64,000 nucleotides of DNA, from assembly GCA_016839805.1 (NCBI GenBank), contig JAEOTO010000032.1, positions 64,001 through 128,000 on the forward strand. Direction: 5' to 3'. Position numbers and translations under genes: made by a program. How positions within the stretch are numbered: the first letter of the stretch is position 1; each line of letters opens with the position of its first letter. This DNA is from Candidatus Hermodarchaeota archaeon. Its GTDB lineage: Archaea; Asgardarchaeota; Hermodarchaeia; Hermodarchaeales; Hermodarchaeaceae. The notes beneath the pieces are model-generated. The model made no database searches. It was not told the origin of the DNA and saw only the letters and a list, made by a program, of their open reading frames with translations. This document shows, in pieces, positions 3,843-37,503 of the stretch.

Positions 3843-5438
3843 TCATAGAAGTTTTGTCATATAAGGACCATCGTAATTGTATCCATGACGTGTGTAATAT
3901 TGCCTGGCTCCAATACCACTCGTGCACACAATCCGATCACGCCCCGCGTTTCGGGTATATTCCTCTGCAGCCTCGAGGAGCAGTGTCCCAATGCCACGAT
4001 GTTGCCAAGCATTATCTTGTATTGTCCCCAGATCAACTGATAATCCATACACATGAAGCTCGCGGATTATTGCAGTGTTAAAGGATTTAATTTCCGCACG
4101 GTGGGCTGTGTCACTTGGTATTCGAAGGCGAAGATACCCCACTAATGCGTCTGAATCGGGGTTTTCATATGCAAGGAAGAATTCCGTCCCATTAGAAGCA
4201 GGATATTGATCAACCAGAAAGTCTAATGATTTGATATCGGGAACCTCGGGTGTTGGATAACCACGAGATCTTTGTTTATATCCCACCTCTCGAAAACGAA
4301 TTGTTTGTAGTTGATTACCCTTTTCTTCGGCACGTTGGAAGACCAACTGTGTCAGGTTACCTAGATTTGGTCCTGCAACTATTAGCCGTTTAGGGATGTC
4401 ACGTTGCATCCGTTGAATTCGAACCCACCGAGGAAGGGAAGGTAGTATCTCAGCAAGAAGATCGATAATCTCCTCATTAGTGTAGGGAGTGTACTCTCCT
4501 CTTCGCCAGATATCAAATAGAGTACTTCCCCGAACTACTAGGCATGGATATATTTTCAACAAGTCAGGTTGAAACTCTTCACGTTTGAACAACTCACGGA
4601 AGACCTGCTGATCTTGTGAGGGGGTACTGCCTGGTAATCCTGGCATTATATGGTAGCAAACCTTAAGACCAGCATCTTTGGCATTCCGTGTTGCCTTGAT
4701 GACGTCGGAAACAGTGTGGCCACGACAAATTTCTGTGTAGATTTCATCATAGATAGTTTGAACGCCTAATTCGACTCTAGTTGTTCCAAGATCTAACATT
4801 TTGTCAACATGGTCAGGTGTACAATAATCGGGTCGAGTTTCAATTGTTATACCGACGGGACGAATGGCACTTCTTTCTGCCGATTTTATAGCCTCAGCCA
4901 GATTTTTCGCATTCATTCCATTCATGGCATCTAAACAGCGTTTAATGAAATTCTGTTGATATTTGTTAGATGCTGCCAGAAACGTACCACCCATTATGAT
5001 AAGCTCAACTTTTTCTATACTATGTCCCATTGCTTGGAGCTGGTCCAACCGGCTCTCTACTTGAAGATACGGATCATATTGGTTTTGTCTTGCGCGAAGA
5101 GTCGCAGGTTCCTCTCCAACATAAGCTTTAGGAGCCGTGGGGATGTTAGTGGGACAGTAAATGCATTGACCTGGACATTCCATTGGCTCAGCCATTACAG
5201 CAACAACTGCCACACCTGATAAGGTGCGAGTTGGTTTCTTTCGTAAAATAGTACTGACTTTTTCTTTCTCGTCTTTGGTTGCGTAACTAAGAATTTCTAC
5301 ATCAGACGGGAACCGGGAGAGTTTATACTGACGACACAATTTTCGTTTCAGACGCTGAAGATCGTTCTTATTACTCACTTTCCCCTCTAATGCAGCTTGA
5401 AGAATTGCTTCTGCAACACGTTCCAACTCAGCGTCCAC
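3843..5438 (-). CDS. elp3: Elp3 tRNA uridine(34) acetyltransferase (radical SAM + GNAT)
   Basis: RTLSGVAVVAVM, CPGQCIYCP, ETRPD, ELGVQ, RELHVYG, WQHRGIG. Confidence 0.97.
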   Translation of the reverse strand: MDAELERVAEAILQAALEGKVSNKNDLQRLKRKLCRQYKLSRFPSDVEILSYATKDEKEKVSTILRKKPTRTLSGVAVVAVMAEPMECPGQCIYCPTNIPTAPKAYVGEEPATLRARQNQYDPYLQVESRLDQLQAMGHSIEKVELIIMGGTFLAASNKYQQNFIKRCLDAMNGMNAKNLAEAIKSAERSAIRPVGITIETRPDYCTPDHVDKMLDLGTTRVELGVQTIYDEIYTEICRGHTVSDVIKATRNAKDAGLKVCYHIMPGLPGSTPSQDQQVFRELFKREEFQPDLLKIYPCLVVRGSTLFDIWRRGEYTPYTNEEIIDLLAEILPSLPRWVRIQRMQRDIPKRLIVAGPNLGNLTQLVFQRAEEKGNQLQTIRFREVGYKQRSRGYPTPEVPDIKSLDFLVDQYPASNGTEFFLAYENPDSDALVGYLRLRIPSDTAHRAEIKSFNTAIIRELHVYGLSVDLGTIQDNAWQHRGIGTLLLEAAEEYTRNAGRDRIVCTSGIGARQYYTRHGYNYDGPYMTKLL

Positions 5439-17089: not shown

Positions 17090-20000
17090 TTAGGTTTTTC
17101 CTTCAATCATTAGCAAACCTTCTTCGAATTTCACAGAAAAGACCTGTGATATACCATCTACCATAGCCACACCCAAGAGGGTCTGTGCCAGTCTTATCGT
17201 GATTTCGTTATGAGAGATTATTATAAACTGAGAGTTTTGAGAGAGATTTTCAATAAGTTTTGCGACTCGGTCGGCATTGTTGGGATCAAGTGCCTCATCG
17301 ATTTCGTCAAGGAAGTAGAAAGGTGCAGGTTGATGGAGCTGCAGTGCAAACATGAAGGTTAAGGCCGTGAGGGCTTTTTCTCCACCAGATAATGCATCAA
17401 GATATTGAATGCGTTTTCCAGCTGGCCGCACGCGCATTCGTATCCCACCAAGAAAGGGGTTTTCTGCGTTTTCCAACTCAAGTTGGCCTTCACCATTGGT
17501 GAGTTGTTGGTATACATCAGTGAAATTGTGTGAGATGCTATTAAAGGCGGTCATAAATACACGGAACTTTTCTTCCTCCGCTCTTCGCATTGCGTCAAGA
17601 ATAGCCTCCCGTTCCTCTCGGATTCGACGTTCCTTTTCAAGGATTTCATCAAAGGCGTGACGAATTTCTTCAAAGCGTTCGACTGCTTTTTGGTTAATAA
17701 GACCAAGCTGTTCACGTTCTTGTTGTAGGTTGGATATTTGTCTTCGAATGCTATGCACAGTCGAGGGTTCAATGGGTATAGCGGGTGGTTCTAAATCACC
17801 AACCTTTTCCCTTTGAACTGTATAGCGTTCTTCCCATTGTTCTATCCGCCCTTCAATTTTAGATCGATCCATCTTTTCTTCATTGATTTTATCAAATAGA
17901 TCGTCGATCGTGACAGTTAATCGCCGGCTTTCTGCTTCACTTTCAGATATATGGTTTTCAAGATCATGTATCTGTTTCTCTAAATTCTCATTGATGGTTT
18001 CTAAGGAAGCCAATTCTAATTGACTTCGTTGGATTTCTTTTTCATTTAATTCAAGCTCGTTAGTCGTTTGTTCCAATTCACTTTTCGTATTAGCAAGATC
18101 GCCTGATAGTCTTGTAAATTCTATTTTTGCGTGTCTTGCTTCACCTGTTTTTTCCGTTAACTCTAGTTGAGTTTCACGGAGTTGAGATTCCAACTCGTCG
18201 AGCTCAGAACGAAGTTTAGTGAGATTGGGATCGAGACTACTTCGTTCTAAGTTAGAAAGGTTTTGCTGTAATTTTTCGCGTTTTCGCGCGAGTTCATCAA
18301 TTTCTAATTGCGTGGATTGTAGTTTTTCATCCAAAGTGATTTTGGCTTTTTCATCGCCTTTCAAGGATTCATGCAGTTTCGCAATACTTGATTTGAAAGT
18401 TTGAAGTTTTGCTTCTTGTTCGGTAACAACTTCATTTGCTTGATCTTTCCTAACTTGTAATTTTTCAGCAATTTTTTGCTTTTCACGAATTTGATCGACA
18501 AGTTGTGTAAGAGTTTCCTTCCTTTTGTTATATTCCCGTTCAGTTTTTGCTTGTAATGTACGTAACTCTTTGAGTTTTTTCTGTAACTCAGGAATTCGAG
18601 CCTCCTCTTCGAGAGTCAGCGATGAGATACCCTTGAAATAGCCTCCAGTAATGGTTCGATTTGGCTCTACCACATCGCCATCAATGGTAATTTTTCTAAT
18701 TCCCGGAGCGGTGATGTTTCGTGCAACCTTTAGGTCTTTAACAATTAGTGTACGACCAAACACAAATTCAAAAGCGGGGCGGTACTGTTCATCAAATGAG
18801 AGCAACTCCAGTGCATTTCCTACAACACCTTTTTGCTCCTTCTTGTAAGTGTAGGTATCTGTTTTGATAGAGCTGAGTGGAATGAAGGAAACCCGACCCA
18901 GGCGATTCTTTTTCAAATGCTCAATGCATTTAGTGGCAGTGTCTTCGTTATCCACGACCACGAAATCTAATCGACCTCCTCCTGCAACCTCAAGTGCAGT
19001 CGCATATTCAGTGGAAGTTTTTCCCAAGCGGCCTAAGGTTCCAAAAACTCCAGAAATTTTCCCATCATTAACATATTTCATGACCGCATCAGTTGCAGCC
19101 TTTCGTGTGAACCCATACTTTTTGAATTCACGAATTGTTTTTAATCGTGTTTGCGCTTCTAACAACTCTTCTTTAGAATCCTGAATGAGTTTTATCAGTT
19201 CTTCGTGACTATTCTGTTTTTCTAGAACCGATGTCTCGAGTTCTTCATGTTGTTTATTGAGGTTATTTACTTCTGATTGAACAGTCTGTAGTTCTTTTTC
19301 GATGCTTTGAAGATCGGTTTGTGCCTCTAGTAAACCGCGTTCTTGTTGGGGTAGGAACGTGTAACTTTCGTCAATTTGTAGTTTAAGGTTATTAATCCCT
19401 GTGTCAGAAACTCGGCTTAATGCTGAAATTTCACCAAGCTCGCTTCTCTTTTTCTCAATTGCATCAGTAAGTGTTAGAATTTGCTCTCTTAAAGAGAGAT
19501 ATTCTGTATCAGGTAAAGATATTTGATCTGAGAGTTCTGATAGGCGAGAACGAATTTGTGAAACTTGTTCTGAGAATGAAGTTTCTTGTGATTTGAGGGC
19601 CATAATTTCCGTTTCAAGATTTTTATTTTTTGATTTTTGATCAGCTTCTTGGGATTCAAGATGTGCAGCGCTTGAGGAAAGTAAGTCTATCTGTTTAGTA
19701 ATTTTGTCTGATGTTAGTTGCAATCCCTTCAAGATTTCACGGAGTCGGGTGGCTTCAATCTCTTTCTTGTGTAATTGTTGATCCAAATCCTTGATTTGTG
19801 TAGCTCCGTTTTGGATACTTTCTTCTAGTTCTAATTTCCGATTCTTTGCTTCTGTTCTTTGATTTTCTAATTCTTCGATTTTACTGGTAAAGGCTGCGTA
19901 TTCCTCTTTCATGTTATTCAATCGTTGTTCAATTCTTGCAAGTTCTGCGAAGACTAAATCCTTTTCCAAGTGAGCAAGTTTATCTGTTATTCCGCGCCAA

Positions 20001-20647
20001 CGAAGGGCATCTTTTCGATCCTTTTCAAGCCGAGTGTATTCTTGACGAATTTCCTCTGTCCGCATTTGTACCATTTTCAGGTTTTGATCGACTTTGACTA
20101 GTTCACTTTCGATTTGTTGTTTCTTCTCGTCAAAAACTGAAATACCAGCCACGCCTTCTACAACCTGTCGTATTTCCGTCGTTGTCATGCTAATAATATT
20201 AGCAAGTTCATTTTGCATCACGATATTGTGTCCTTCTGGATGTAATCCAGCTACGGCGATTGTGTCGAGCATTTCAGTCCGAGTAACTCGTTTGCCCCCT
20301 ATTCGATAGGAGCTTATGCCGCTCTCATCTACCTCTCTGCTAATAGTAACATCATCAGCATCTATTGGAAACTGCCGGTCTGTATTATCAAAAACTAGGT
20401 TTATCCGACATAATTTAGCAGGGGACTTTTCTATTCCGCCATTAAATAGTAGAGACGCAAAATTCTCCGCACGAAGTGACTTACTACTTAACCGCCCTAA
20501 TACAAAGCATACAGCATCTAAGATATTGCTTTTCCCACACCCATTTTCGCCAACAATAGCAGTAAAACCTGGGGTAAAGTTAATGCTGGTTTTTCGTGGA
20601 CTAAAACTTTTGAACCCTTGAATTGAAACTTGCCGAATGAAAGCCAC
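17090..20647 (-). CDS. smc: Chromosome segregation protein SMC
   Basis: GFKSF, Walker A GENGCGKSN, hinge GV.G.LG.L, long coiled coils, LSGGEK, LDEIDEALD, IISH. Confidence 0.98.
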   Translation of the reverse strand: MAFIRQVSIQGFKSFSPRKTSINFTPGFTAIVGENGCGKSNILDAVCFVLGRLSSKSLRAENFASLLFNGGIEKSPAKLCRINLVFDNTDRQFPIDADDVTISREVDESGISSYRIGGKRVTRTEMLDTIAVAGLHPEGHNIVMQNELANIISMTTTEIRQVVEGVAGISVFDEKKQQIESELVKVDQNLKMVQMRTEEIRQEYTRLEKDRKDALRWRGITDKLAHLEKDLVFAELARIEQRLNNMKEEYAAFTSKIEELENQRTEAKNRKLELEESIQNGATQIKDLDQQLHKKEIEATRLREILKGLQLTSDKITKQIDLLSSSAAHLESQEADQKSKNKNLETEIMALKSQETSFSEQVSQIRSRLSELSDQISLPDTEYLSLREQILTLTDAIEKKRSELGEISALSRVSDTGINNLKLQIDESYTFLPQQERGLLEAQTDLQSIEKELQTVQSEVNNLNKQHEELETSVLEKQNSHEELIKLIQDSKEELLEAQTRLKTIREFKKYGFTRKAATDAVMKYVNDGKISGVFGTLGRLGKTSTEYATALEVAGGGRLDFVVVDNEDTATKCIEHLKKNRLGRVSFIPLSSIKTDTYTYKKEQKGVVGNALELLSFDEQYRPAFEFVFGRTLIVKDLKVARNITAPGIRKITIDGDVVEPNRTITGGYFKGISSLTLEEEARIPELQKKLKELRTLQAKTEREYNKRKETLTQLVDQIREKQKIAEKLQVRKDQANEVVTEQEAKLQTFKSSIAKLHESLKGDEKAKITLDEKLQSTQLEIDELARKREKLQQNLSNLERSSLDPNLTKLRSELDELESQLRETQLELTEKTGEARHAKIEFTRLSGDLANTKSELEQTTNELELNEKEIQRSQLELASLETINENLEKQIHDLENHISESEAESRRLTVTIDDLFDKINEEKMDRSKIEGRIEQWEERYTVQREKVGDLEPPAIPIEPSTVHSIRRQISNLQQEREQLGLINQKAVERFEEIRHAFDEILEKERRIREEREAILDAMRRAEEEKFRVFMTAFNSISHNFTDVYQQLTNGEGQLELENAENPFLGGIRMRVRPAGKRIQYLDALSGGEKALTALTFMFALQLHQPAPFYFLDEIDEALDPNNADRVAKLIENLSQNSQFIIISHNEITIRLAQTLLGVAMVDGISQVFSVKFEEGLLMIEGKT

Positions 20648-20791
20648 GAGAAAACGCCTACCCACTAACTTTTATATCTTAGTCAGACGCGGCAACAGAT
20701 GGAAATACCACTACAAAAAGGTCTCGAAATTACTTTTTTGAATAAGTTTGTCAAGAATTTTTCCGGTTTATCTAGCTGAAAAATAAATTTC

Positions 20792-29474: not shown

Positions 29475-30644
29475 ATGAAGACTATAAGCGAGCTCTGGGC
29501 ATTAGATGAGACAATACAAAAAATTGCTGAACAAATTCAAGTTATTGAGGAAAAAAGAAACGCCTTTGCCTCAATTATTCACTCTGTGCGCCACTCTCTT
29601 GATTTGCAATCAGATTTACCATTAGCACAACAATACATCGTTGATGGAGCAATAGCACATACAGTAAAACCAACGGGTCTAAGTGGACTCCGCGTTTGTG
29701 GTGTTGATGGGGGGCTTCTCAAAAAGACCTTACGAGGTATAGAGTTAGTTATCACCCGTGCCAATGCAACTATCTTCGAATATACACCCGCTAATCGGGT
29801 TTCAGCTATTTACTTTCCTGAAAAAACGACACCCCCTACTATAAAAGCGGAACTTACGCCCATTTCGTGGCGAGAGGCTGAAGTTAACGCATCACTTGAA
29901 CGATTAAAAGCAGAAATCGAGCTAGCTATACGAGTTCAGGATCACCATTCTACTGAATTACTATTACTAGATGGTTCTCTCAGACCCCATATTAGTGATC
30001 GCCCGCCGAATAAGTCCGTGTTCTATTCCAAGTATGACAAAATCAAAGCTCTATATGATGAACTCTTTGTAAAAACTGAAGAGACAGGAACCCTCCTTGC
30101 AGGTGTAATAAAGGACAGTAGAAGTCAACGCTTTATTCGAATTTTTGGTGAACTTCTTCCCCATCTAATAAATCGGAATCCTGAATTGAAAAGATTATTA
30201 GAACTTGATTATCGGACAATCTTGAAAACAAGCTATGATACGGATTTCTTCTTCCGTGTACTTGATGTGGGTGAACGCTCACCCATATTGCGACTGAACG
30301 ATTTTAACAGTACTTCGAATGTAGAGTCTAATACTGATGCTCAACAAGATAGTCAGCTGGTGTGTTTTTACTTGCGAACAGCGAGGTATGATTACCCACT
30401 CTGTGTTGAAGTCTTTACCGGATCTTATGACCCACTTAGGATAATCGAAAAAATCAGTGCAATGTTGCTACCAATGTCTTCCGATAATGAGGAATTCGCA
30501 CTACCAGCTGTCTTGATTGACGCCGATTCTCAAGCTCGATTAATTGAACGAGATCTTGATTTCTTATTTGCACAGCTTGCAAATCGAATAGGATATCCAC
30601 AAAGCTTACTGAAATTACGTCGTGAAAGAATGCCGTTCCATTAG
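29475..30644 (+). CDS. nurA: DNA double-strand break repair nuclease NurA
   Basis: GVDGG, LLDGSL, GVIKDS, P..LIDAD..AR, R.PF C-terminus; upstream of herA. Confidence 0.9.
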   Translation: MKTISELWALDETIQKIAEQIQVIEEKRNAFASIIHSVRHSLDLQSDLPLAQQYIVDGAIAHTVKPTGLSGLRVCGVDGGLLKKTLRGIELVITRANATIFEYTPANRVSAIYFPEKTTPPTIKAELTPISWREAEVNASLERLKAEIELAIRVQDHHSTELLLLDGSLRPHISDRPPNKSVFYSKYDKIKALYDELFVKTEETGTLLAGVIKDSRSQRFIRIFGELLPHLINRNPELKRLLELDYRTILKTSYDTDFFFRVLDVGERSPILRLNDFNSTSNVESNTDAQQDSQLVCFYLRTARYDYPLCVEVFTGSYDPLRIIEKISAMLLPMSSDNEEFALPAVLIDADSQARLIERDLDFLFAQLANRIGYPQSLLKLRRERMPFH

Positions 30645-30661
30645 GAAAATTTGTATGAAGG

Positions 30662-32203
30662 ATGAATAGTGAAATGAAAACAGAATCTCTGGGGACTATC
30701 GTTTGTACTGAAGATGGTCCTTCTACGGAAAAAATCGAGTTTGTTATCGGTAATCGCAATGAGCTATCTACAGAAAAACAAATTCCCATTCACGTTGGGC
30801 AGTATGTCTCCATCAATGCTGAAGAGGGACTAGTTATTGCCCACATCGAACAGATATATAAGACGAACCGATATTTTTCACAGATTGACGCAGTTCACGA
30901 ATTTACGCGATCCGGGAAAGCTTTCGGGGCGATTTTTCCTATTGACCGATGGGAATATGTGCTAGCCGAGGCTAAACCACTTGGCATATTTACCAACGGA
31001 CAAGTCCAAAGGGTTACCTATCCTCCATCACCTGGTGCTATAGTCTCCGCGCCTGATTATAAAATTCTAAGTGAATTCCTTGGCTTTAGTAAAGGAGGAA
31101 TTCATCTGGGACATCTTTTATTCCATGATATCCCAGCAACTTTTAACCTTTCCAAAATGTATCAGAAACATGTTGCACTTCTTGCAATGAGTGGAGCAGG
31201 AAAAAGCTATGCCGCCTCTGTAATGTTAGAAGAACTCTTGTCGAGGAAACCAGCTCAGGGTCGTCCTACAATACTTGTGATAGATGTTCATGGCGAATAC
31301 ACCGGATTAGCAGAATCTCAGGGAACAAAAGGAAAAACCTTCGAAGACCAAATAACTGTCATCCGAAGTCCACTCGTGGAAATAGCAACACCACGAATGA
31401 GCGCAAAGGCTTTCGCCACCTATTCACCGGACATGGGAACAATTCAAGTCCGTGAACTAACGCGCATTATTCGCTCACTACGAACTGCTCGAAAGGGACA
31501 ACCCTATGATATTGGTGACTTAACCATTGCATTAGAACAAGATCCCTCTATTAACGTTCGAACACGTGAAGCTCTATTGGGGTGGTTGGATAATCTCCAA
31601 AGCCTTCGGCTTTTTGGTAAAACTTCAACTCCGGAATGGAGTAAATTAATGAAACCGGGTCAAGCGGTGATTCTTAATTTAAGTGAAACCGTAAGTTTAC
31701 AAAAGAAACAAATCATTGTTGATGCCGTTCTTCGCCACTTATTCGATTTGAGACGAGATGGAATTATTCCCCCAGCTATTGTGTTTCTCGAAGAGGCCCA
31801 TCAATTCTGTCCTGAGGCTAGACGTGCACTAGCATTTTCTAAAGGCATTCTTGAGACTGTCGCTCGGGAAGGGCGCAAGTATAATTTATCGCTCTGTATT
31901 ATTTCTCAACGCCCGGTTCGGCTTTCAACAACGGTGTTATCGCAATGTGGTACTAACATATTTCTTCGGATAACTAATCCATATGATTTAGACCATATTC
32001 GGGCAACTTCTGAAAAAATTACCAAAGCAACCCTGACATCAATTTCTAGTCTCACAGTGGGAGAAGCTCTAGTGGTTGGTCAGGCCACAAGGTTTCCTGT
32101 ATTTATTCAGGTTCGTGAAAGAGCTACAAAAGAAACGGCGTTTGGTGAAGATTTCGAAACCGTTACGCAGAGATATGACAAGAAAGGGAGAAAGGCTGAC
32201 TGA
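30662..32203 (+). CDS. herA: HerA helicase/translocase
   Basis: HAS-barrel N-terminus, H.ALLAMSGAGKS, ID.HGEY, EEAH.F.P, REGRK, SQRP, SQC.T, GEAL..G. Confidence 0.95.
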   Translation: MNSEMKTESLGTIVCTEDGPSTEKIEFVIGNRNELSTEKQIPIHVGQYVSINAEEGLVIAHIEQIYKTNRYFSQIDAVHEFTRSGKAFGAIFPIDRWEYVLAEAKPLGIFTNGQVQRVTYPPSPGAIVSAPDYKILSEFLGFSKGGIHLGHLLFHDIPATFNLSKMYQKHVALLAMSGAGKSYAASVMLEELLSRKPAQGRPTILVIDVHGEYTGLAESQGTKGKTFEDQITVIRSPLVEIATPRMSAKAFATYSPDMGTIQVRELTRIIRSLRTARKGQPYDIGDLTIALEQDPSINVRTREALLGWLDNLQSLRLFGKTSTPEWSKLMKPGQAVILNLSETVSLQKKQIIVDAVLRHLFDLRRDGIIPPAIVFLEEAHQFCPEARRALAFSKGILETVAREGRKYNLSLCIISQRPVRLSTTVLSQCGTNIFLRITNPYDLDHIRATSEKITKATLTSISSLTVGEALVVGQATRFPVFIQVRERATKETAFGEDFETVTQRYDKKGRKAD

Positions 32204-32219
32204 TAATAACTGGGCAAAA

Positions 32220-32366
32220 TGGTGGGCACGGCGGGATTCAAACCCGCGACCTCCGGCTTACCTAGGCTTCGCAGTTGAATGTTCGGAGCGACACCATATA
32301 AGGCTTACACACTTTGCGTATTAATACGCGAGAGTTCGGCGCTCCATCAGGCTAAGCCACGTGCCC
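32220..32366 (-). tRNA. tRNA-Ile(UAU) with two introns (29/30: 32336-32305; 37/38: 32296-32259); CCA encoded
   Basis: Spliced sequence GGGCACG TG GCTT AGCCTGATG GAGC G CCGGC CT TAT AA GCCGG AGGTC GCGGG TTTGAAT CCCGC CGTGCCC A CCA. Acceptor, anticodon and T stems pair perfectly; D stem has one G-U. Strict BHB at 37/38, relaxed motif at 29/30. Confidence 0.9.
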
Positions 32367-32416
32367 ATTATGAATTGTGTGATGTTTCACAGCAGCTTAA
32401 ATGTGTTGGGTCACTC

Positions 32417-35389
32417 TTAGTCCTCTTGGACGATAAACCCAAATTGAATCTCTTCTTCAGCAAAAGTAAGTTTCCCAGTTGCAAGTCCCTTTAAGATGGG
32501 CAATTTGTCGCCTATTTCAAGTGTCAAGGCACCAACCTTTGAAGTGATACCTTCTCGAGTAGTTTCTATTGCCTGGTGGAGTTCTGATGACTCGATCGCC
32601 AGATACAGGGCGATGCGTTGAGTAACGTGTAATCCCTGTTTTTTTCGGGTCGCTTGTATTCGGCGAATAAGATCACGTGAAAGCCGCTCAGCGCGAAGTT
32701 CAGGGGTTTCACTGATATCAAGGTATACCGTTGCAAAGGGTAACTCTTTACTTCTGAGTAACTCTCCCTTAGCCTTTTTTTGGATCTCTACAAATTTGAC
32801 GTTGGTTTGGCTTGCTACAACATCGCTAAAATGATCGATTTGGAATTCCTTTTTTGAAGGAACAATGATTAAGCGTTGACAAGGCCAACGTAGTTTCAAA
32901 CCTTCCTCTTGGCGAATAAATTGAGTTGTTTCTACGATAGCAGAGACCCACTCCATTTCTTGGCTCAGCTCTGGATCAATCAGTTTTTCGTTGACTTCAG
33001 GCCAAGGAAGCATGTGAACACTTATTGGAGCATCAGGTTCCGCAGAGCGAATGAGTGCTTGATACATTCTTTCTGTTTGAAACGGAAGGACTGGGGCTAG
33101 AACCGCTAAGAGTGTTCTTAGAACGTAGTAAAGTGTAGTAAATGCTTGGATTTTGGTTTCATCATGAGAGCTAACCCATGTTCGTGGTCGAATCAGTTTG
33201 ATATACCATCGACTCAAATCTTGGACGATGAAAGACTCCATTAAGCGTGGTATAAATGGAAGTTCGTATTTCTCCAGTCGTTCAGCCACTTGTTTTATTA
33301 ATAGATGCAACTGGGAGAGAATCCACCGATCCTCATTTTGTAAGGATTGCGGTTTCAACCGATGAGATGTTGGCTCAAATTTTGCGGCTTTCATGAATGT
33401 GGTTGCAAAGACATAAACATTCCAAAGAATTGAGAGAGAACGACGGGTATCTTCGACATCTTTCCAAAGAAAATGCAAGTCTTCGCCTGGACCAGTGCTC
33501 TTTATACAATACATTCGTAGTGTCTCAGCACCAAATTTCTCCACTACTTCTTCAGGAAACACGCCAATGCCTTTTGACTTTGACATTGGTCGACCGTGCT
33601 CATCAGCTGTAAAGCCATGCATATAGACACTTTTGTAAGGTTCTCGGTTATCAGCCAGCATGGTGGAGTTGAAGAGGGTATTAAACCAGTTGCTAATTTG
33701 GTCCTTGCCTTCCATTACAAAGTCAGCTGTTTCCCAATTATCAAAATCCGTAGTTCCGTAGGTTGCCCAGCGAGTAGCCCAGGGAGCAACACCACTATCT
33801 AACCATACATCTAAGACATCAGGAACCCGTTTCATTGTGTTTTTGCATTTCGAACAAGGCCAAGTGATTTTGTCGATCCATGGTCGATGGAGGTTCTCAG
33901 GAACCTTTCCGGATTTCTCTTTTAGTTCATCAATGCTCCCAATAACTTCAATTTCCTCACATTTGTCACATTTCCAGATTGGTAGAGGAGCTCCCCAATA
34001 GCGTTGTCTGGAAATGCACCAGTCCCGAAGATTTTGCACCCAGTTACGGAACCAAGTATGTCCAGCCCAGTCAGGAATCCAGTAGACATCTTCGTTCTTT
34101 TTGATGATTTCTTCGCGTAAATCGCTAACGCGGAGGAACCACTGATCGGTAGCAAGGTATACTAGAGGGCTACCGCATCGCCAGCAGTGAGCGTATTCGT
34201 GTTCAATTGTGTCCTGATGAACTAAGAGGTTCTTTCGGCGTAAATCTTCGAGAATAACTTCACTTGCATCTTGGACCTTCATACCTGCATATTTTCCACC
34301 TTCTTCCGAGAAGGTACCAGCAAACGTGACTGGACAGAAAATGGGAATTCCCTCACGCTCACCTACCTCGAAGTCCTGAGGGCCATGCCCAGGGGCCATG
34401 TGAACAAGTCCAGTTCCTTGCTCTAGTGTTACATATTCATCACTCAGCACAACAGAATGAACTTTCTCAGAGGTTTCTCTGTATTTAGCCTGTCTAGGAA
34501 CCTCGTCTAGCAGGGGATGTTCATAACGAAGCCCCAGAAGCTCCTTTCCTTTGAATTCTTCAATCACTTCGTATTGCTTGTTTAGCAGAGCCTGTAGTAT
34601 TATGTTGGCTAGTCCTTTGGCTAGAATCCATACTTCATCATTAACTTTGACGCGAACGTATTCAAATTCGGGATTTACCATTACTGCCATGTTTGCTGGA
34701 AGTGTCCATGGAGTCGTGGTCCAAATCACAATGAACTCTTTATTTCTCCCAAGGACCGGAAACTTTACCCAAATCGAATAATCTTCAATTGTCTTAAATT
34801 CATGCTCTCGTTTTGCAAGGGCTGTCTCACAACGAACACAACAATCTATAGATCGTAGCCCACGGTAAAGAAATCCTCGTTCAGAGGCGCGTTTCATTAA
34901 ATACCAAGTGCCTTCAATATAGGGATTATCAATCGTGCGATACGGTCTGTCCCAATCCATCCAAATGCCTAAACGTTTGAACTGCTTCGTCATTTGATCT
35001 AAATTCGATAAGGCAAAATTCTGACACTGTTCAATGAATTTATCCACGCCAATCTCTTTTTCAATGTCAAGTTTCGATTTGATGCCTAGAGCCTTTTCTA
35101 CGTGCACCTCAATAGGTAGCCCGTGCATATCAAAACCAGGTGTGTCTACAACACTGAATCCCTGCATCCTCCGAAACCGTAAGACCATGCCCTTCAAAAT
35201 TTTGTTCCAAGCGGTTCCCAAGTGTATGGCACCTGTGGTGTAAGGTGGACCATCTAAAAACTTGAATGAGGGTCGATTTCGAAGTTGCTTTGTCACCAAC
35301 TCATACACTTGATTCTTTTGCCAGAACAGAAGAATCTCTTCTTCCATTGAGGGTAACTCGAATTGCTTCGGAAGTTCTGAAACTGGCAT
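32417..35389 (-). CDS. ileS: Isoleucine--tRNA ligase (archaeal/eukaryote type)
   Basis: DGPPY, HLGT, GFDMHGLP.E, WTTTPWTLP.N, GTGLVH.APGHG, DW.ISRQRYWG, MSKS. Confidence 0.98.
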   Translation of the reverse strand: MPVSELPKQFELPSMEEEILLFWQKNQVYELVTKQLRNRPSFKFLDGPPYTTGAIHLGTAWNKILKGMVLRFRRMQGFSVVDTPGFDMHGLPIEVHVEKALGIKSKLDIEKEIGVDKFIEQCQNFALSNLDQMTKQFKRLGIWMDWDRPYRTIDNPYIEGTWYLMKRASERGFLYRGLRSIDCCVRCETALAKREHEFKTIEDYSIWVKFPVLGRNKEFIVIWTTTPWTLPANMAVMVNPEFEYVRVKVNDEVWILAKGLANIILQALLNKQYEVIEEFKGKELLGLRYEHPLLDEVPRQAKYRETSEKVHSVVLSDEYVTLEQGTGLVHMAPGHGPQDFEVGEREGIPIFCPVTFAGTFSEEGGKYAGMKVQDASEVILEDLRRKNLLVHQDTIEHEYAHCWRCGSPLVYLATDQWFLRVSDLREEIIKKNEDVYWIPDWAGHTWFRNWVQNLRDWCISRQRYWGAPLPIWKCDKCEEIEVIGSIDELKEKSGKVPENLHRPWIDKITWPCSKCKNTMKRVPDVLDVWLDSGVAPWATRWATYGTTDFDNWETADFVMEGKDQISNWFNTLFNSTMLADNREPYKSVYMHGFTADEHGRPMSKSKGIGVFPEEVVEKFGAETLRMYCIKSTGPGEDLHFLWKDVEDTRRSLSILWNVYVFATTFMKAAKFEPTSHRLKPQSLQNEDRWILSQLHLLIKQVAERLEKYELPFIPRLMESFIVQDLSRWYIKLIRPRTWVSSHDETKIQAFTTLYYVLRTLLAVLAPVLPFQTERMYQALIRSAEPDAPISVHMLPWPEVNEKLIDPELSQEMEWVSAIVETTQFIRQEEGLKLRWPCQRLIIVPSKKEFQIDHFSDVVASQTNVKFVEIQKKAKGELLRSKELPFATVYLDISETPELRAERLSRDLIRRIQATRKKQGLHVTQRIALYLAIESSELHQAIETTREGITSKVGALTLEIGDKLPILKGLATGKLTFAEEEIQFGFIVQED

Positions 35390-35576
35390 TGTGAAGACTC
35401 CATCCAAAATTGACTAGCGTGCCCCTACCAACCTTCAACAGCATAAAAAGTCTTGGGCAATAATAATTAACTAGCCAATATTCAAAAAAACAAAGCTAAG
35501 AGCAAAAATGAACGAAAGCTCTATATGGCTTTAAACGTAAGTCAGACAAACCGAGCCCCATGAGGAGAAAGGCTAC

Positions 35577-36092
35577 ATGAGTACACCGCAACGCCAGTAT
35601 GTCCTCAAAGTCTGCGTCGTCGGCGATGGCGCCGTTGGTAAAACCAGTCTTATCATCCGATACACCGAAGGTCACTTCCGGGAGTCGTATATCATGACCG
35701 TGGGAACTAGTTTTGCCGTGAAAGAACTAAATTTTGGTGATACTTTAGTGCGTTTACAGTTGTGGGATCTGGCTGGTCAACCTCACTTTAGTTCTGTGCG
35801 GCCTGTCTTCTATCGGGGAGCAGCTGGTGTGATTTTAGTATTTGATGTTACGCGGCGTCAGACCTTTGAAAATATCCCCGGGTGGTATGATGAAGTTTCA
35901 CAGGTTACCGGGGCGGTTACCTCAGTCTTGTTGGCTAACAAAGTTGATTTGATAGATCAGCGCCAAGTGTCGACGGAGGAGGCTATGGCTTATGCACAAC
36001 AATTGGGGTGGGGTTATTTTGAGACTAGCGCTAAAGAAGGGCATGGCGTTACTGATGCTTTTCGCCAGATTGCCTGGACTGGTGTTAGCTAG
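35577..36092 (+). CDS. Rab-like small GTPase
   Basis: GDGAVGKT, TVG, RLQLWDLAGQ, FYRGA, LVFDVT, NKVDL, ETSAK; no C-terminal Cys tail. Confidence 0.95.
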   Translation: MSTPQRQYVLKVCVVGDGAVGKTSLIIRYTEGHFRESYIMTVGTSFAVKELNFGDTLVRLQLWDLAGQPHFSSVRPVFYRGAAGVILVFDVTRRQTFENIPGWYDEVSQVTGAVTSVLLANKVDLIDQRQVSTEEAMAYAQQLGWGYFETSAKEGHGVTDAFRQIAWTGVS

Positions 36093-36103
36093 CTTAATTT
36101 TCA

Positions 36104-36883
36104 TTAAGCGTCGTTTAGATACTCTGTGAGTTTACGCGAGTTCTTCTGCATAAGAAAGGTTGCACACTGTTGAGGTTTAATTTTCCGATATTCAAGACCG
36201 AGTTGTTCAATTAGAGCGAAGGTTCCTTTGGTGAGACTTGGTGCGACAAGAATGCCCCGCAATTGAGTGGCATCTTCGGTTTGGAAACTTTTAATATAGC
36301 GATAGAGTTGATGGACTGCTTCGCTGTCAGCACGACGGCGTTTAACTTCGATAATGACTAATCGTCCTTTGTCATCACGGGCAAAGATATCGATGAATCC
36401 TGGGGCAACAGGGCGTTCACGTCGTATTGTGCGGAGTCCAGCTTCAATGAGTTCAGGGTGAGCACTAAGAACCTTTTGCATCTCATCTTCGGTTAAATGC
36501 ATACTAAACTCACCAGCGTCATCAATAAGGCTCGCACTAACCATGGAAAGCAGGGAAAATTCAATGCGAACAGTTTCACGCGGTTTTGCACGATTAGCAA
36601 ATAGAATGAGTTTATCCTTCTCTTGCTTAATCTTTAGAGTAGCTCCTGGAGGTTGCCAGTTAACGGGTTCAACTCCACTCTCCTTATGAACTAGGATAGC
36701 TCCATCACGTTTTAAAATTATTAGACGTTCACCCTCCGTTAGTACTGATCTAGCGCGACCATGATACTCGACATAGCAGTTGCCAATAATTTGGATTAAT
36801 CGCTTTTGTGAAATTGCCTTTTCAAGGAGCTGATGAGCTTGCCTTAGGGTTGGTGATTGGAGTAGCCATATTTTCTCATTCAT
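36104..36883 (-). CDS. nucS: Mismatch endonuclease NucS/EndoMS
   Basis: Y.GRA.S.L..G.R, PVNWQP, G.IDI...D..G..V.IEVKR, AV.QL.RY; PIP-like tail KLTEYL; ATG 36883. Confidence 0.95.
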   Translation of the reverse strand: MNEKIWLLQSPTLRQAHQLLEKAISQKRLIQIIGNCYVEYHGRARSVLTEGERLIILKRDGAILVHKESGVEPVNWQPPGATLKIKQEKDKLILFANRAKPRETVRIEFSLLSMVSASLIDDAGEFSMHLTEDEMQKVLSAHPELIEAGLRTIRRERPVAPGFIDIFARDDKGRLVIIEVKRRRADSEAVHQLYRYIKSFQTEDATQLRGILVAPSLTKGTFALIEQLGLEYRKIKPQQCATFLMQKNSRKLTEYLNDA

Positions 36884-36966
36884 TGAGGAGTTAAGATCAG
36901 ACAAAGTATAATCAAATCGAAGACATGCCGTAATTCTAAATAAGTTTTGACTACCAGTAAAGAATT

Positions 36967-37503
36967 GTGTGTAAATTTCGTTTGTATGATGAATCAGCAC
37001 AATCCTATCATCGTCGGTATAGCCAAATTCAACGAATAAAATACCAAGCAATAGTCACATATCTTGAAAGATGTCCTCTTGTAGATGTCGGTATTGGAAC
37101 AGGTATTGGTTTGGCATCGATTATTGAATTCGCTCCAATTGTTGGTGTTGATTGGGCAATCGAAATGTTGCGAATAGCACATAAACAAGTGATAAAAATC
37201 AATGAGTGGAACCAAGCCATATCCTTAGTGTGTGCATCAGCGGAGGCATTACCCTTCCGGAACAACGTTTTTCCAACTGTAGTTAGCATTACGGTAATTC
37301 AAAATTTGAATAATATTCAGCGTGGAATTCAAGAACTAATCCGAATTGTACAGCCCCGAGGAATATTAGCCATAACGACATTAGAAAAGTGTCTGCCCAT
37401 TCAAGAGCTTGAAACAGAGTTTAATCAACTTTCTACTCCAATTGTACGTTTAGAAAATCTTGGAAATGAAGACGGAGGATTAATCTATAAATTACCCAGC
37501 TGA
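36967..37503 (+). CDS. Class I SAM-dependent methyltransferase
   Basis: YD..A..Y..RY...Q..KY, DVGIGTG, GVD....ML, AEALPF. Confidence 0.85.
   Translation: MCKFRLYDESAQSYHRRYSQIQRIKYQAIVTYLERCPLVDVGIGTGIGLASIIEFAPIVGVDWAIEMLRIAHKQVIKINEWNQAISLVCASAEALPFRNNVFPTVVSITVIQNLNNIQRGIQELIRIVQPRGILAITTLEKCLPIQELETEFNQLSTPIVRLENLGNEDGGLIYKLPS

What the first reader, a model, noticed from the sequence alone, without database searches (positions are those of the whole stretch)
32220..32366. Double-intron tRNA-Ile with the rare UAU anticodon directly downstream of ileS
Seen: removing a 32-nt intron (29/30) and a 38-nt intron (37/38) gives a clean cloverleaf with loop CU-UAU-AA; the anticodon sits in an 8-nt middle exon (GCCTTATA, 32304-32297). 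Intron 2 forms a strict BHB (CTTA/TAGG helix, TA|T and TA|A bulges, GGTGTCGC/GCGAAGCC). Intron 1 forms a relaxed motif (GCGC/GTGT, CG|A, AA|G) with an internal GCGTA/TACGC hairpin. Established: most archaea read AUA with agmatidine-modified tRNA-Ile(CAU) made by TiaS; UAU is the eukaryotic solution, and in yeast that tRNA's intron is needed for pseudouridylation at positions 34/36. Inference: a TiaS-independent, eukaryote-like AUA-decoding system with probably ordered splicing, co-located with its synthetase.
Basis: partly seen in the sequence, partly recalled or inferred. Interest (0 to 1): 0.88.

Follow-up and report, generated by a model that had tools for sequence, protein, structure and literature searches.

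The report
Asgard isoleucine tRNA, self-marking intron
This is a real two-intron isoleucine tRNA that reads the AUA codon without the usual archaeal enzyme TiaS (a strategy already known from other archaea), and its second intron carries a conserved fold-back with an ACA tail that probably presents the anticodon's first uridine to the pseudouridine enzyme Cbf5 before splicing, which I found described nowhere.

Summary
Observation confirmed. The window is from a Hermodarchaeota (Asgard) genome. Only one splice register gives two complete BHB helices; it yields a 77-nt tRNA-Ile(UAU). A relative lacking intron 1 confirms the junction. The gene is in 17/19 class genomes, always behind ileS; tiaS is in 0/19 and no Ile(CAU) was found. 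This decoding route is known (Nanoarchaeum, Korarchaeum, ARMAN), and this scan found it before in many other Asgard genomes.

Two things are added here. (1) The 37/38 intron keeps ACA at intron nucleotides 15-17 in seven lineages (six Asgard families, one Thermoprotei group). Its 5' part pairs with the tRNA's own exon with compensatory changes. The fold mimics a tRNA T-arm/acceptor helix with U34 in the place of U55: a candidate cis element for Cbf5-made pseudouridine 34 (about 45%; inferred, untested). (2) The synthetases of TiaS-less Asgards form one clade lacking the elbow-binding INS domain, often with this tRNA beside them. TiaS-bearing Heimdallarchaeia have the more eukaryote-like synthetase, so 'eukaryote-like' is analogy, not shown ancestry. 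Ordered splicing is unsupported. No RNA data were available.

The parts
32220..32366 (-). pre-tRNA-Ile(UAU) gene, 147 nt, mature 77 nt with encoded CCA
   Evidence: Rfam RF00005; register test; exons invariant in 13 orthologues
32337..32366 (-). exon 1 (nt 1-29 with 17a); A19 at 32347; nt 21-26 at 32345-32340 pair with intron 2 in the alternative fold
32305..32336 (-). intron 1 (29/30), 32 nt, relaxed BHB; genus-variable and absent in G016
32297..32304 (-). exon 2 (nt 30-37); anticodon UAU at 32300-32298
32259..32296 (-). intron 2 (37/38), 38 nt, strict BHB (helix partner at 32264-32261)
32280..32295 (-). conserved fold-back element in intron 2: i2-i4 pair with nt 30-32, i7-i12 (32290-32285) pair with nt 21-26, ACA at i15-17 (32282-32280)
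32220..32258 (-). exon 3 (nt 38-76); U56 at 32240 matches A19
32396..32409 (-). conserved BRE/TATA-like box about 30 nt upstream of G1: probable own promoter (inferred from conservation)
   Evidence: same box in 14/14 same-genus copies; the sigma-70 scan is not applicable
32417..35407 (-). ileS, 996 aa; lacks the INS (C-ter B) subdomain; keeps Gln918/Arg921, equivalent to yeast Gln996/Arg999
   Evidence: TIGR00392 910 bits; alignments; tree
30662..32203 (+). convergent herA, with nurA at 29475-30644 (neighbours, not part of the system)
3843..5438 (-). elp3 (U34 C5-modifying enzyme), relevant as a rival modifier of U34
   Evidence: TIGR01211 705 bits
12367..12582 (-). gar1-like gene (Cbf5 accessory), weak match
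   Evidence: PF04410 E 9.4e-6, below cut-off here, found in 19/19 class genomes

Best explanation
Shown by sequence comparison: this is the organism's AUA decoder, a tRNA-Ile(UAU) that replaces the Ile(CAU)/TiaS route and is inherited beside an INS-less IleRS. Established chemistry: archaeal-type IleRS reads the carbonyl of base 34 with a conserved Arg, so U34 is chargeable; that Arg is kept. Inferred: both introns are cut by the (alpha-beta)2 EndA. Inferred, about 45%: before splicing the precursor adopts a second fold in which intron 2 pairs back on nt 21-26 and 30-32. U33-A37 then form a T-loop-like turn with U34 in the place of U55, followed by 13 nt and ACA, as nt 61-73 and CCA follow the T-loop in a tRNA. 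Cbf5-Nop10-Gar1 would bind the ACA through its PUA domain and make pseudouridine 34, which also blocks Elp3 and limits AUG misreading. The RNA then refolds into the BHB and is spliced. Confidence is about 0.92 for the decoding role, 0.8 for a selected second fold, 0.45 for Cbf5 and pseudouridine 34.
For: Decoder: (AUA is 12 per 1000 codons, 15.7% of Ile; the only other Ile tRNA found is GAU). All 9 pattern hits that I fetched from TiaS-bearing Asgard genomes were not tRNAs. Element: ACA at i15-17 in 27/30 genes, plus G020, L. ossiferum and three more Thermoprotei; 0/11 other anticodon-loop introns of this genome. Out-of-sample: of 8 genes fetched afterwards 4 have ACA and 1 AAA at i15-17, 2 keep the spacing after an insertion, 1 keeps the pairing only. 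Covariation: 92.5% of cells paired, 3 compensated pairs, slid controls 35-48%. Fold energies are comparable: -50.8 versus -46.0 kcal/mol. Two Hermod genomes relaxed the BHB helix but kept ACA. cbf5, nop10 and gar1 are present. Cbf5 makes pseudouridine 55 without a guide and needs the 3' CCA, read like ACA (PMC1616971). Target U lies 14-16 nt from ACA (PMC11077068). Arg999 mechanism (PMC11685878).
Against: No RNA or modification data. The element has no K-turn, no upper stem and no 5' guide strand. i1 rarely pairs with U33, and C31 faces A in 8/12 sequences. The partner of i7-i13 differs by lineage (5' exon in most, 3' exon in Thermoprotei, intron in L. ossiferum). ACA is missing in G138 and L285, so it is not obligatory. 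P. furiosus Cbf5 alone did not modify a T-arm/acceptor minisubstrate (PMC1616971). Sequences are related, so covariation counts are few events (about three or four). Genomes are incomplete (this one 86.7%). M. mobile reads AUA with unmodified UAU (PMC3575796).
Confidence: 0.6

Rival explanations
1. Ordinary tRNA-Ile3(UAU) with passenger introns. The ACA and exon complementarity are an inherited relic of one ancestral intron, and U34 is unmodified or modified after splicing, with the ribosome and tRNA-Met competition keeping AUG safe as in M. mobile.
For: The system moves as a unit with ileS, so the introns share ancestry; ACA lost in G138 and L285; i2-i3 and i6-i9 also serve the BHB fold in Hermod; PMC3575796.
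Against: The rest of the intron has diverged fully in length and sequence while ACA holds its position; intron letters follow exon changes at nt 21, 22, 23 and 29.
Confidence: 0.2
2. The second fold is real and selected but serves something else: another enzyme (Pus10, aPus7, a methyltransferase), a separate trans guide RNA that pairs across the intron as sR115 does on pre-tRNA-Tyr, a target at U33 or U36, or a folding delay that times splicing.
For: No K-turn or pocket; Pus10 modifies T-arm minisubstrates without CCA (PMC1616971); sR115 precedent (PMC11077068); the two folds exclude each other.
Against: Pus10 does not need CCA/ACA, so it would not explain the fixed ACA; a folding delay would not need a fixed triplet; only the U34 register pairs i2-i5 with nt 29-32.
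Confidence: 0.3
3. The UAU system of these Asgards is the ancestor of the eukaryotic intron-dependent pseudouridine tRNA-Ile(UAU).
For: Same anticodon and same intron position; about half of 400 Asgard genomes lack TiaS.
Against: Heimdallarchaeum-family genomes keep TiaS (27/31) and their IleRS is the INS-bearing type closer to yeast and human; eukaryotes use Pus1 (PMC9602550); Asgard IleRS monophyly is rejected, which points to transfer or differential loss.
Confidence: 0.1
4. Pseudogene, assembly artefact or a different anticodon.
For: Non-canonical A19, G21 and U56; ARAGORN does not call it.
Against: Invariant exons, compensated A19-U56, unique register, natural intron-less junction; listed differences in contigs of other public runs fall in the introns.
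Confidence: 0.02

Closest known systems
tRNA-Ile3(UAU) of Nanoarchaeum equitans, Ca. Korarchaeum cryptofilum and ARMAN-2/-4/-5 (PMC8450103, PMC6000648, PMC3239211)
   Same: UAU anticodon, no Ile(CAU), no TiaS; ARMAN-2 has a strict-BHB 37/38 intron that is cut in vitro.
   Different: Second intron at 29/30, A19-U56 elbow, fixed linkage to an INS-less ileS, and the ACA fold-back element; I could not obtain the published introns to test them for ACA.
Guide-independent pseudouridine-55 activity of archaeal Cbf5 (PMC1616971, PMC6138745)
   Same: U in second position of a T-loop-like turn on a 10-12 bp helix ending in a CCA/ACA triplet (U55 to C74 is 19 nt; U34 to ACA is 18 nt here).
   Different: Here the mimic is built from anticodon arm, D-stem strand and intron, and the triplet is internal, not 3'-terminal; no activity shown.
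Archaeal box H/ACA guide RNAs, including sR115 for pre-tRNA-Tyr U35 (PMC11077068)
   Same: Lower stem followed by ACA/ANA, 14 nt from the start of the strand that pairs 5' of the target U.
   Different: No K-turn, upper stem or 5' guide; substrate and element are one molecule. It is the complement of the atypical guides, which lack lower stem and ACA.
Intron-encoded box C/D guide of archaeal pre-tRNA-Trp (PMC2584109)
   Same: A 37/38 intron that directs modification of position 34 of its own tRNA before splicing.
   Different: C/D boxes, fibrillarin and 2'-O-methylation, shown experimentally; here ACA and a predicted pseudouridine.
Eukaryotic tRNA-Ile(UAU) with intron-dependent pseudouridines 34/36 made by Pus1 (PMC9602550)
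   Same: Anticodon, intron position, predicted outcome at 34.
   Different: Different enzyme, different IleRS type; homology not shown.
IleRS-A and INS loss (PMC13752280)
   Same: Archaeal IleRS with type-2 C-terminus and INS deleted; groups with Woesearchaeota and Micrarchaeota enzymes, the taxa of the paper's IleRS-A examples.

Membership tests
tRNA-Ile3(UAU), TiaS-independent AUA decoding | Cloverleaf with UAU anticodon after splicing, A73, Ile-type acceptor | tested here: met
tRNA-Ile3(UAU), TiaS-independent AUA decoding | No tiaS in the genome | tested here: met
   PF08489, PF22641 and an Asgard TiaS profile find nothing; 0/19 in class against 19/19 for control genes; genomes incomplete
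tRNA-Ile3(UAU), TiaS-independent AUA decoding | No tRNA-Ile2(CAU) | tested here: met
   Only Met-i and Met-e CAU genes found in G000 and in 15/19 class genomes; a pattern search could miss a heavily interrupted gene
tRNA-Ile3(UAU), TiaS-independent AUA decoding | Charged with Ile; reads AUA and not AUG | not testable with these tools
   IleRS keeps the Arg that reads base 34 (PMC11685878); no assay
BHB tRNA introns | 4-bp helix with two 3-nt bulges at both splice sites | tested here: met
   Intron 2 strict, intron 1 relaxed
BHB tRNA introns | Endonuclease able to cut relaxed motifs | tested here: inconclusive
   Two EndA genes, one with the Tyr/His/Lys triad and one without His, consistent with (alpha-beta)2; specificity not assayed
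Box H/ACA guide RNA | ACA/ANA 14-16 nt from the target, after a lower stem | tested here: met
Box H/ACA guide RNA | Upper stem with K-turn/K-loop | tested here: not met
   No tandem GA motif or upper stem in intron 2
Box H/ACA guide RNA | Bipartite pocket pairing on both sides of the target U | tested here: not met
   Only the 5' side of U34 is paired; so it is not filed as an H/ACA RNA, only as working like a Cbf5 substrate
Box H/ACA guide RNA | Cbf5-dependent pseudouridine at the predicted site | not testable with these tools
   No RNA data; proteins present
IleRS-A | HUP-1 catalytic domain with type-2 C-terminus | tested here: inconclusive
   Motif and tree neighbours fit; the paper's profiles were not available

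The most novel reading that the evidence does not exclude
An ancient, transferable ileS + tRNA-Ile(UAU) module in which the anticodon intron folds the precursor into a false T-arm/acceptor helix ending in ACA, so that Cbf5 makes pseudouridine 34 in cis without any guide RNA: a third archaeal way to secure AUA decoding, convergent with the eukaryotic Pus1 route.
Probability: 0.4. Interest if true: 0.85.

Novelty: new variant of a known kind. Interest (0 to 1): 0.66.

Why it matters
How a U34 tRNA-Ile avoids reading AUG in TiaS-less archaea is unresolved, and why tRNA introns persist is a long-standing question. If the element works as predicted, it answers both for about half of sampled Asgard genomes with one short in vitro assay, and the cultured Ca. 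Lokiarchaeum ossiferum carries the ACA, so it can be mapped in vivo. [quoted passage not shown] The IleRS result warns against reading the UAU anticodon as a direct eukaryotic ancestor trait. The bare observation (UAU, two introns, no TiaS) is not new.

Tried and rejected
ARAGORN at default misses the gene and at low threshold mis-splices it as Glu. Free folding of the precursor is not better than shuffles (z -1.2), so folding energy is no evidence. Three phylum-wide pattern searches for UAU genes were too narrow or too noisy: they missed most Lokiarchaeia genes, so I give no phylum-wide count; the TiaS-positive hits I fetched were not tRNAs, a few others were not fetched. My pattern for the Thermoproteota survey was mis-specified and is discarded. 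No RNA holder listed. The published ARMAN and Korarchaeum intron sequences were not in the held supplements. Paper searches for Asgard plus TiaS or an ACA element in tRNA-Ile introns found nothing; the library lacks most subscription journals. The careful IleRS tree did not finish; the quick tree is used. A special U34-reading residue in this IleRS was considered and rejected: the common Arg suffices. Obligate co-transcription with ileS was rejected because of the conserved own TATA box and the head-to-head layout in Thermoprotei. Exception kept in view: G125 lacks TiaS, but the only IleRS found there is of the other type, and I found no UAU gene in it.

Full report
Origin. The window is G000:C22:64001-128000 of a 2.31-Mb genome, 86.7% complete. 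Its IleRS is 94% identical to a Hermod MAG and 87% to Ca. Hermodarchaeum yapensis, so this is Hermodarchaeota (Asgard).

The observation. Rfam matches tRNA at 32366-32223 on the minus strand. Removing 32336-32305 and 32296-32259 gives a 77-nt cloverleaf with a five-pair anticodon stem and UAU. I enumerated all one- and two-intron registers; only this one has both BHB central helices complete. In 13 same-genus copies no exon column varies, while 20/32 columns of intron 1 and 10/38 of intron 2 do. G016 lacks intron 1 and shows the predicted junction directly. Intron 1's motif covaries in the second genus. A19 and U56 replace G19 and C56 together in all 17 Hermod copies. A TATA-like box about 30 nt upstream is conserved, so the tRNA probably has its own promoter (inference).

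Decoding role. TiaS is not found in G000 by two Pfam models or by a profile of Asgard TiaS, nor in any of 19 class genomes, whereas Nop10 and Gar1 are found in 19/19. The CAU genes found are initiator and elongator Met only. AUA makes up 12 per 1000 codons, and the other Ile tRNA is GAU, so this gene is the only candidate AUA reader found. Two EndA genes fit an (alpha-beta)2 enzyme. This strategy is published for N. equitans, K. cryptofilum and ARMAN (PMC8450103, PMC6000648, PMC3239211), multi-intron Asgard tRNAs are published (10.64898/2026.10.13.758758), and the scan has 31 earlier notes on Asgard UAU genes, including this gene in other Hermods.

The ileS module. TiaS_FLD is present in 184/400 Asgard genomes, with a family-level pattern. 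The UAU gene lies directly behind ileS in 17/17 Hermods and in Atabeyarchaeia-like, Odinarchaeum, Helarchaeota and two further families, and head-to-head with ileS in five TiaS-less Thermoprotei genomes. In a quick ML tree, 12 of 13 TiaS-less Asgard IleRS rows group with the Thermoprotei enzyme and a TiaS-negative Woesearchaeote (SH-aLRT 99), apart from all TiaS-bearing rows. Asgard IleRS monophyly is rejected, although several misplaced rows could contribute to that. The whole clade lacks the INS (C-ter B) subdomain, which binds G19/U20 of the tRNA elbow (PMC11685878, PMC13752280); that may have allowed A19-U56 (inference; Ile(GAU) keeps G19-C56). The Arg that reads base 34 is kept (Arg921), so no special adaptation is needed to charge U34. 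Heimdallarchaeum has TiaS and an INS-bearing IleRS that scores 750/721 bits against human and yeast, against 550/510 for this one. 'Eukaryote-like' is therefore analogy. INS loss also occurs with TiaS (Hadarchaeota row), and kin share traits, so the correlation is few events.

The intron 2 element. Comparing the 37/38 introns showed ACA at nucleotides 15-17 in 27 of 30 genes: 17 Hermod, 9 from four other Asgard families and one Thermoprotei. It is also there in G020, Ca. L. ossiferum and three more Thermoprotei, and at 16-18 in a fourth. Two Helarchaeota genes keep the same internal spacing behind an insertion; G138 lacks it. None of 11 other anticodon-loop introns of G000 has it; background is 0.014. 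Intron nucleotides 7-12 pair with exon nt 21-26 and nucleotides 2-5 with nt 29-32. On 12 distinct sequences 92.5% of cells pair, three pairs change on both sides, and slid controls give 35-48%. I then fetched ten further ileS loci as an out-of-sample test: eight had a UAU gene, four with ACA and one with AAA at 15-17, two displaced with the spacing kept (one duplicates G128), one with pairing but no ACA. In the window the alternative fold is as stable as the BHB fold and excludes it.

Mechanism, inferred. In that fold U33-A37 sit like U54-A58 of a T-loop, U34 like U55, and 13 nt lead to ACA as nt 61-73 lead to CCA. Archaeal Cbf5 makes pseudouridine 55 without a guide and needs the CCA, which its PUA domain reads like ACA (PMC1616971); the spacing also meets the 14-16 nt rule (PMC11077068). 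G000 encodes Cbf5 (with a BHB intron and an intein), Nop10 and Gar1, and Elp3, which pseudouridine 34 would exclude because C5 becomes the glycosidic carbon (own knowledge). The element is not an H/ACA RNA: no K-turn, no upper stem, no 5' guide. Weak points: C31 often faces A, the stem partner varies by lineage, two genes lack ACA, and Cbf5 alone failed on a minisubstrate in the cited paper. I put Cbf5-made pseudouridine 34 at about 0.45 and a selected second fold at about 0.8. Earlier scan notes propose K-turn self-guides in Asgard tRNA-Tyr introns; none described this element, and I found no paper on it.

Verdict. Observation confirmed; interpretation partly supported. The core is a new member of a known kind seen many times in this scan. 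The ACA fold-back and the synthetase clade make it a new variant with a cheap decisive test. Interest 0.66.

Noticed in passing
G000:C9 about 52700-50000, minus (L237, L238): cbf5 is interrupted by a 42-nt in-frame BHB-type intron with a stop, just before the KPPGPTSH motif (the site known from crenarchaeal cbf5, own knowledge), and by a large intein.
   Followed up: partly
G000:C22:23371-23240 (L002): The 55-nt tRNA-Tyr intron has a hairpin with facing GA motifs, like the K-turn self-guides noted by earlier agents in other Asgards; the gene lies near an endA gene.
   Followed up: no
G000:C27:4041-4185: tRNA-Trp with a 68-nt intron carrying C/D-like boxes, the known self-guide.
   Followed up: no
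G000:C22 about 27460-27270: Elongator tRNA-Met with three introns (near 32/33, 37/38 and in the T-loop), missed by ARAGORN and by the Rfam genome search.
   Followed up: partly
window 29475-32203: nurA-herA pair; I did not check for mre11/rad50 beside it. herA ends 16 nt from the tRNA 3' end, convergent.
   Followed up: no
window 35577-37051: Ras-family GTPase and nucS directly upstream of ileS; the same order is kept in a distant Hermod-like vent contig (L288).
   Followed up: no
L095 (G013), L182-L184 (G016-G018): These copies have gained a T-loop intron, and G016 a long D-loop intron, so intron content of this gene turns over within one family while the 37/38 intron stays.
   Followed up: partly
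L191, L228, L283 (Helarchaeota): The 37/38 intron has a 25-32 nt insertion in front of the conserved element, possibly a tandem or nested intron; its start resembles the G138 intron.
   Followed up: partly
L285, L286: Two unnamed archaeal assemblies have a UAU gene right behind an INS-short ileS, with the exon pairing kept through compensatory changes; taxonomy not obtained.
   Followed up: partly
G085 and G100: Two TiaS-bearing genomes carry a second IleRS-like gene.
   Followed up: no
L071: A Gracilibacteria IleRS nests among TiaS-bearing Asgard IleRS in the tree, on a long branch.
   Followed up: no
window 17090-20665 and 325-1530: SMC and Cdc6 genes; ordinary.
   Followed up: no
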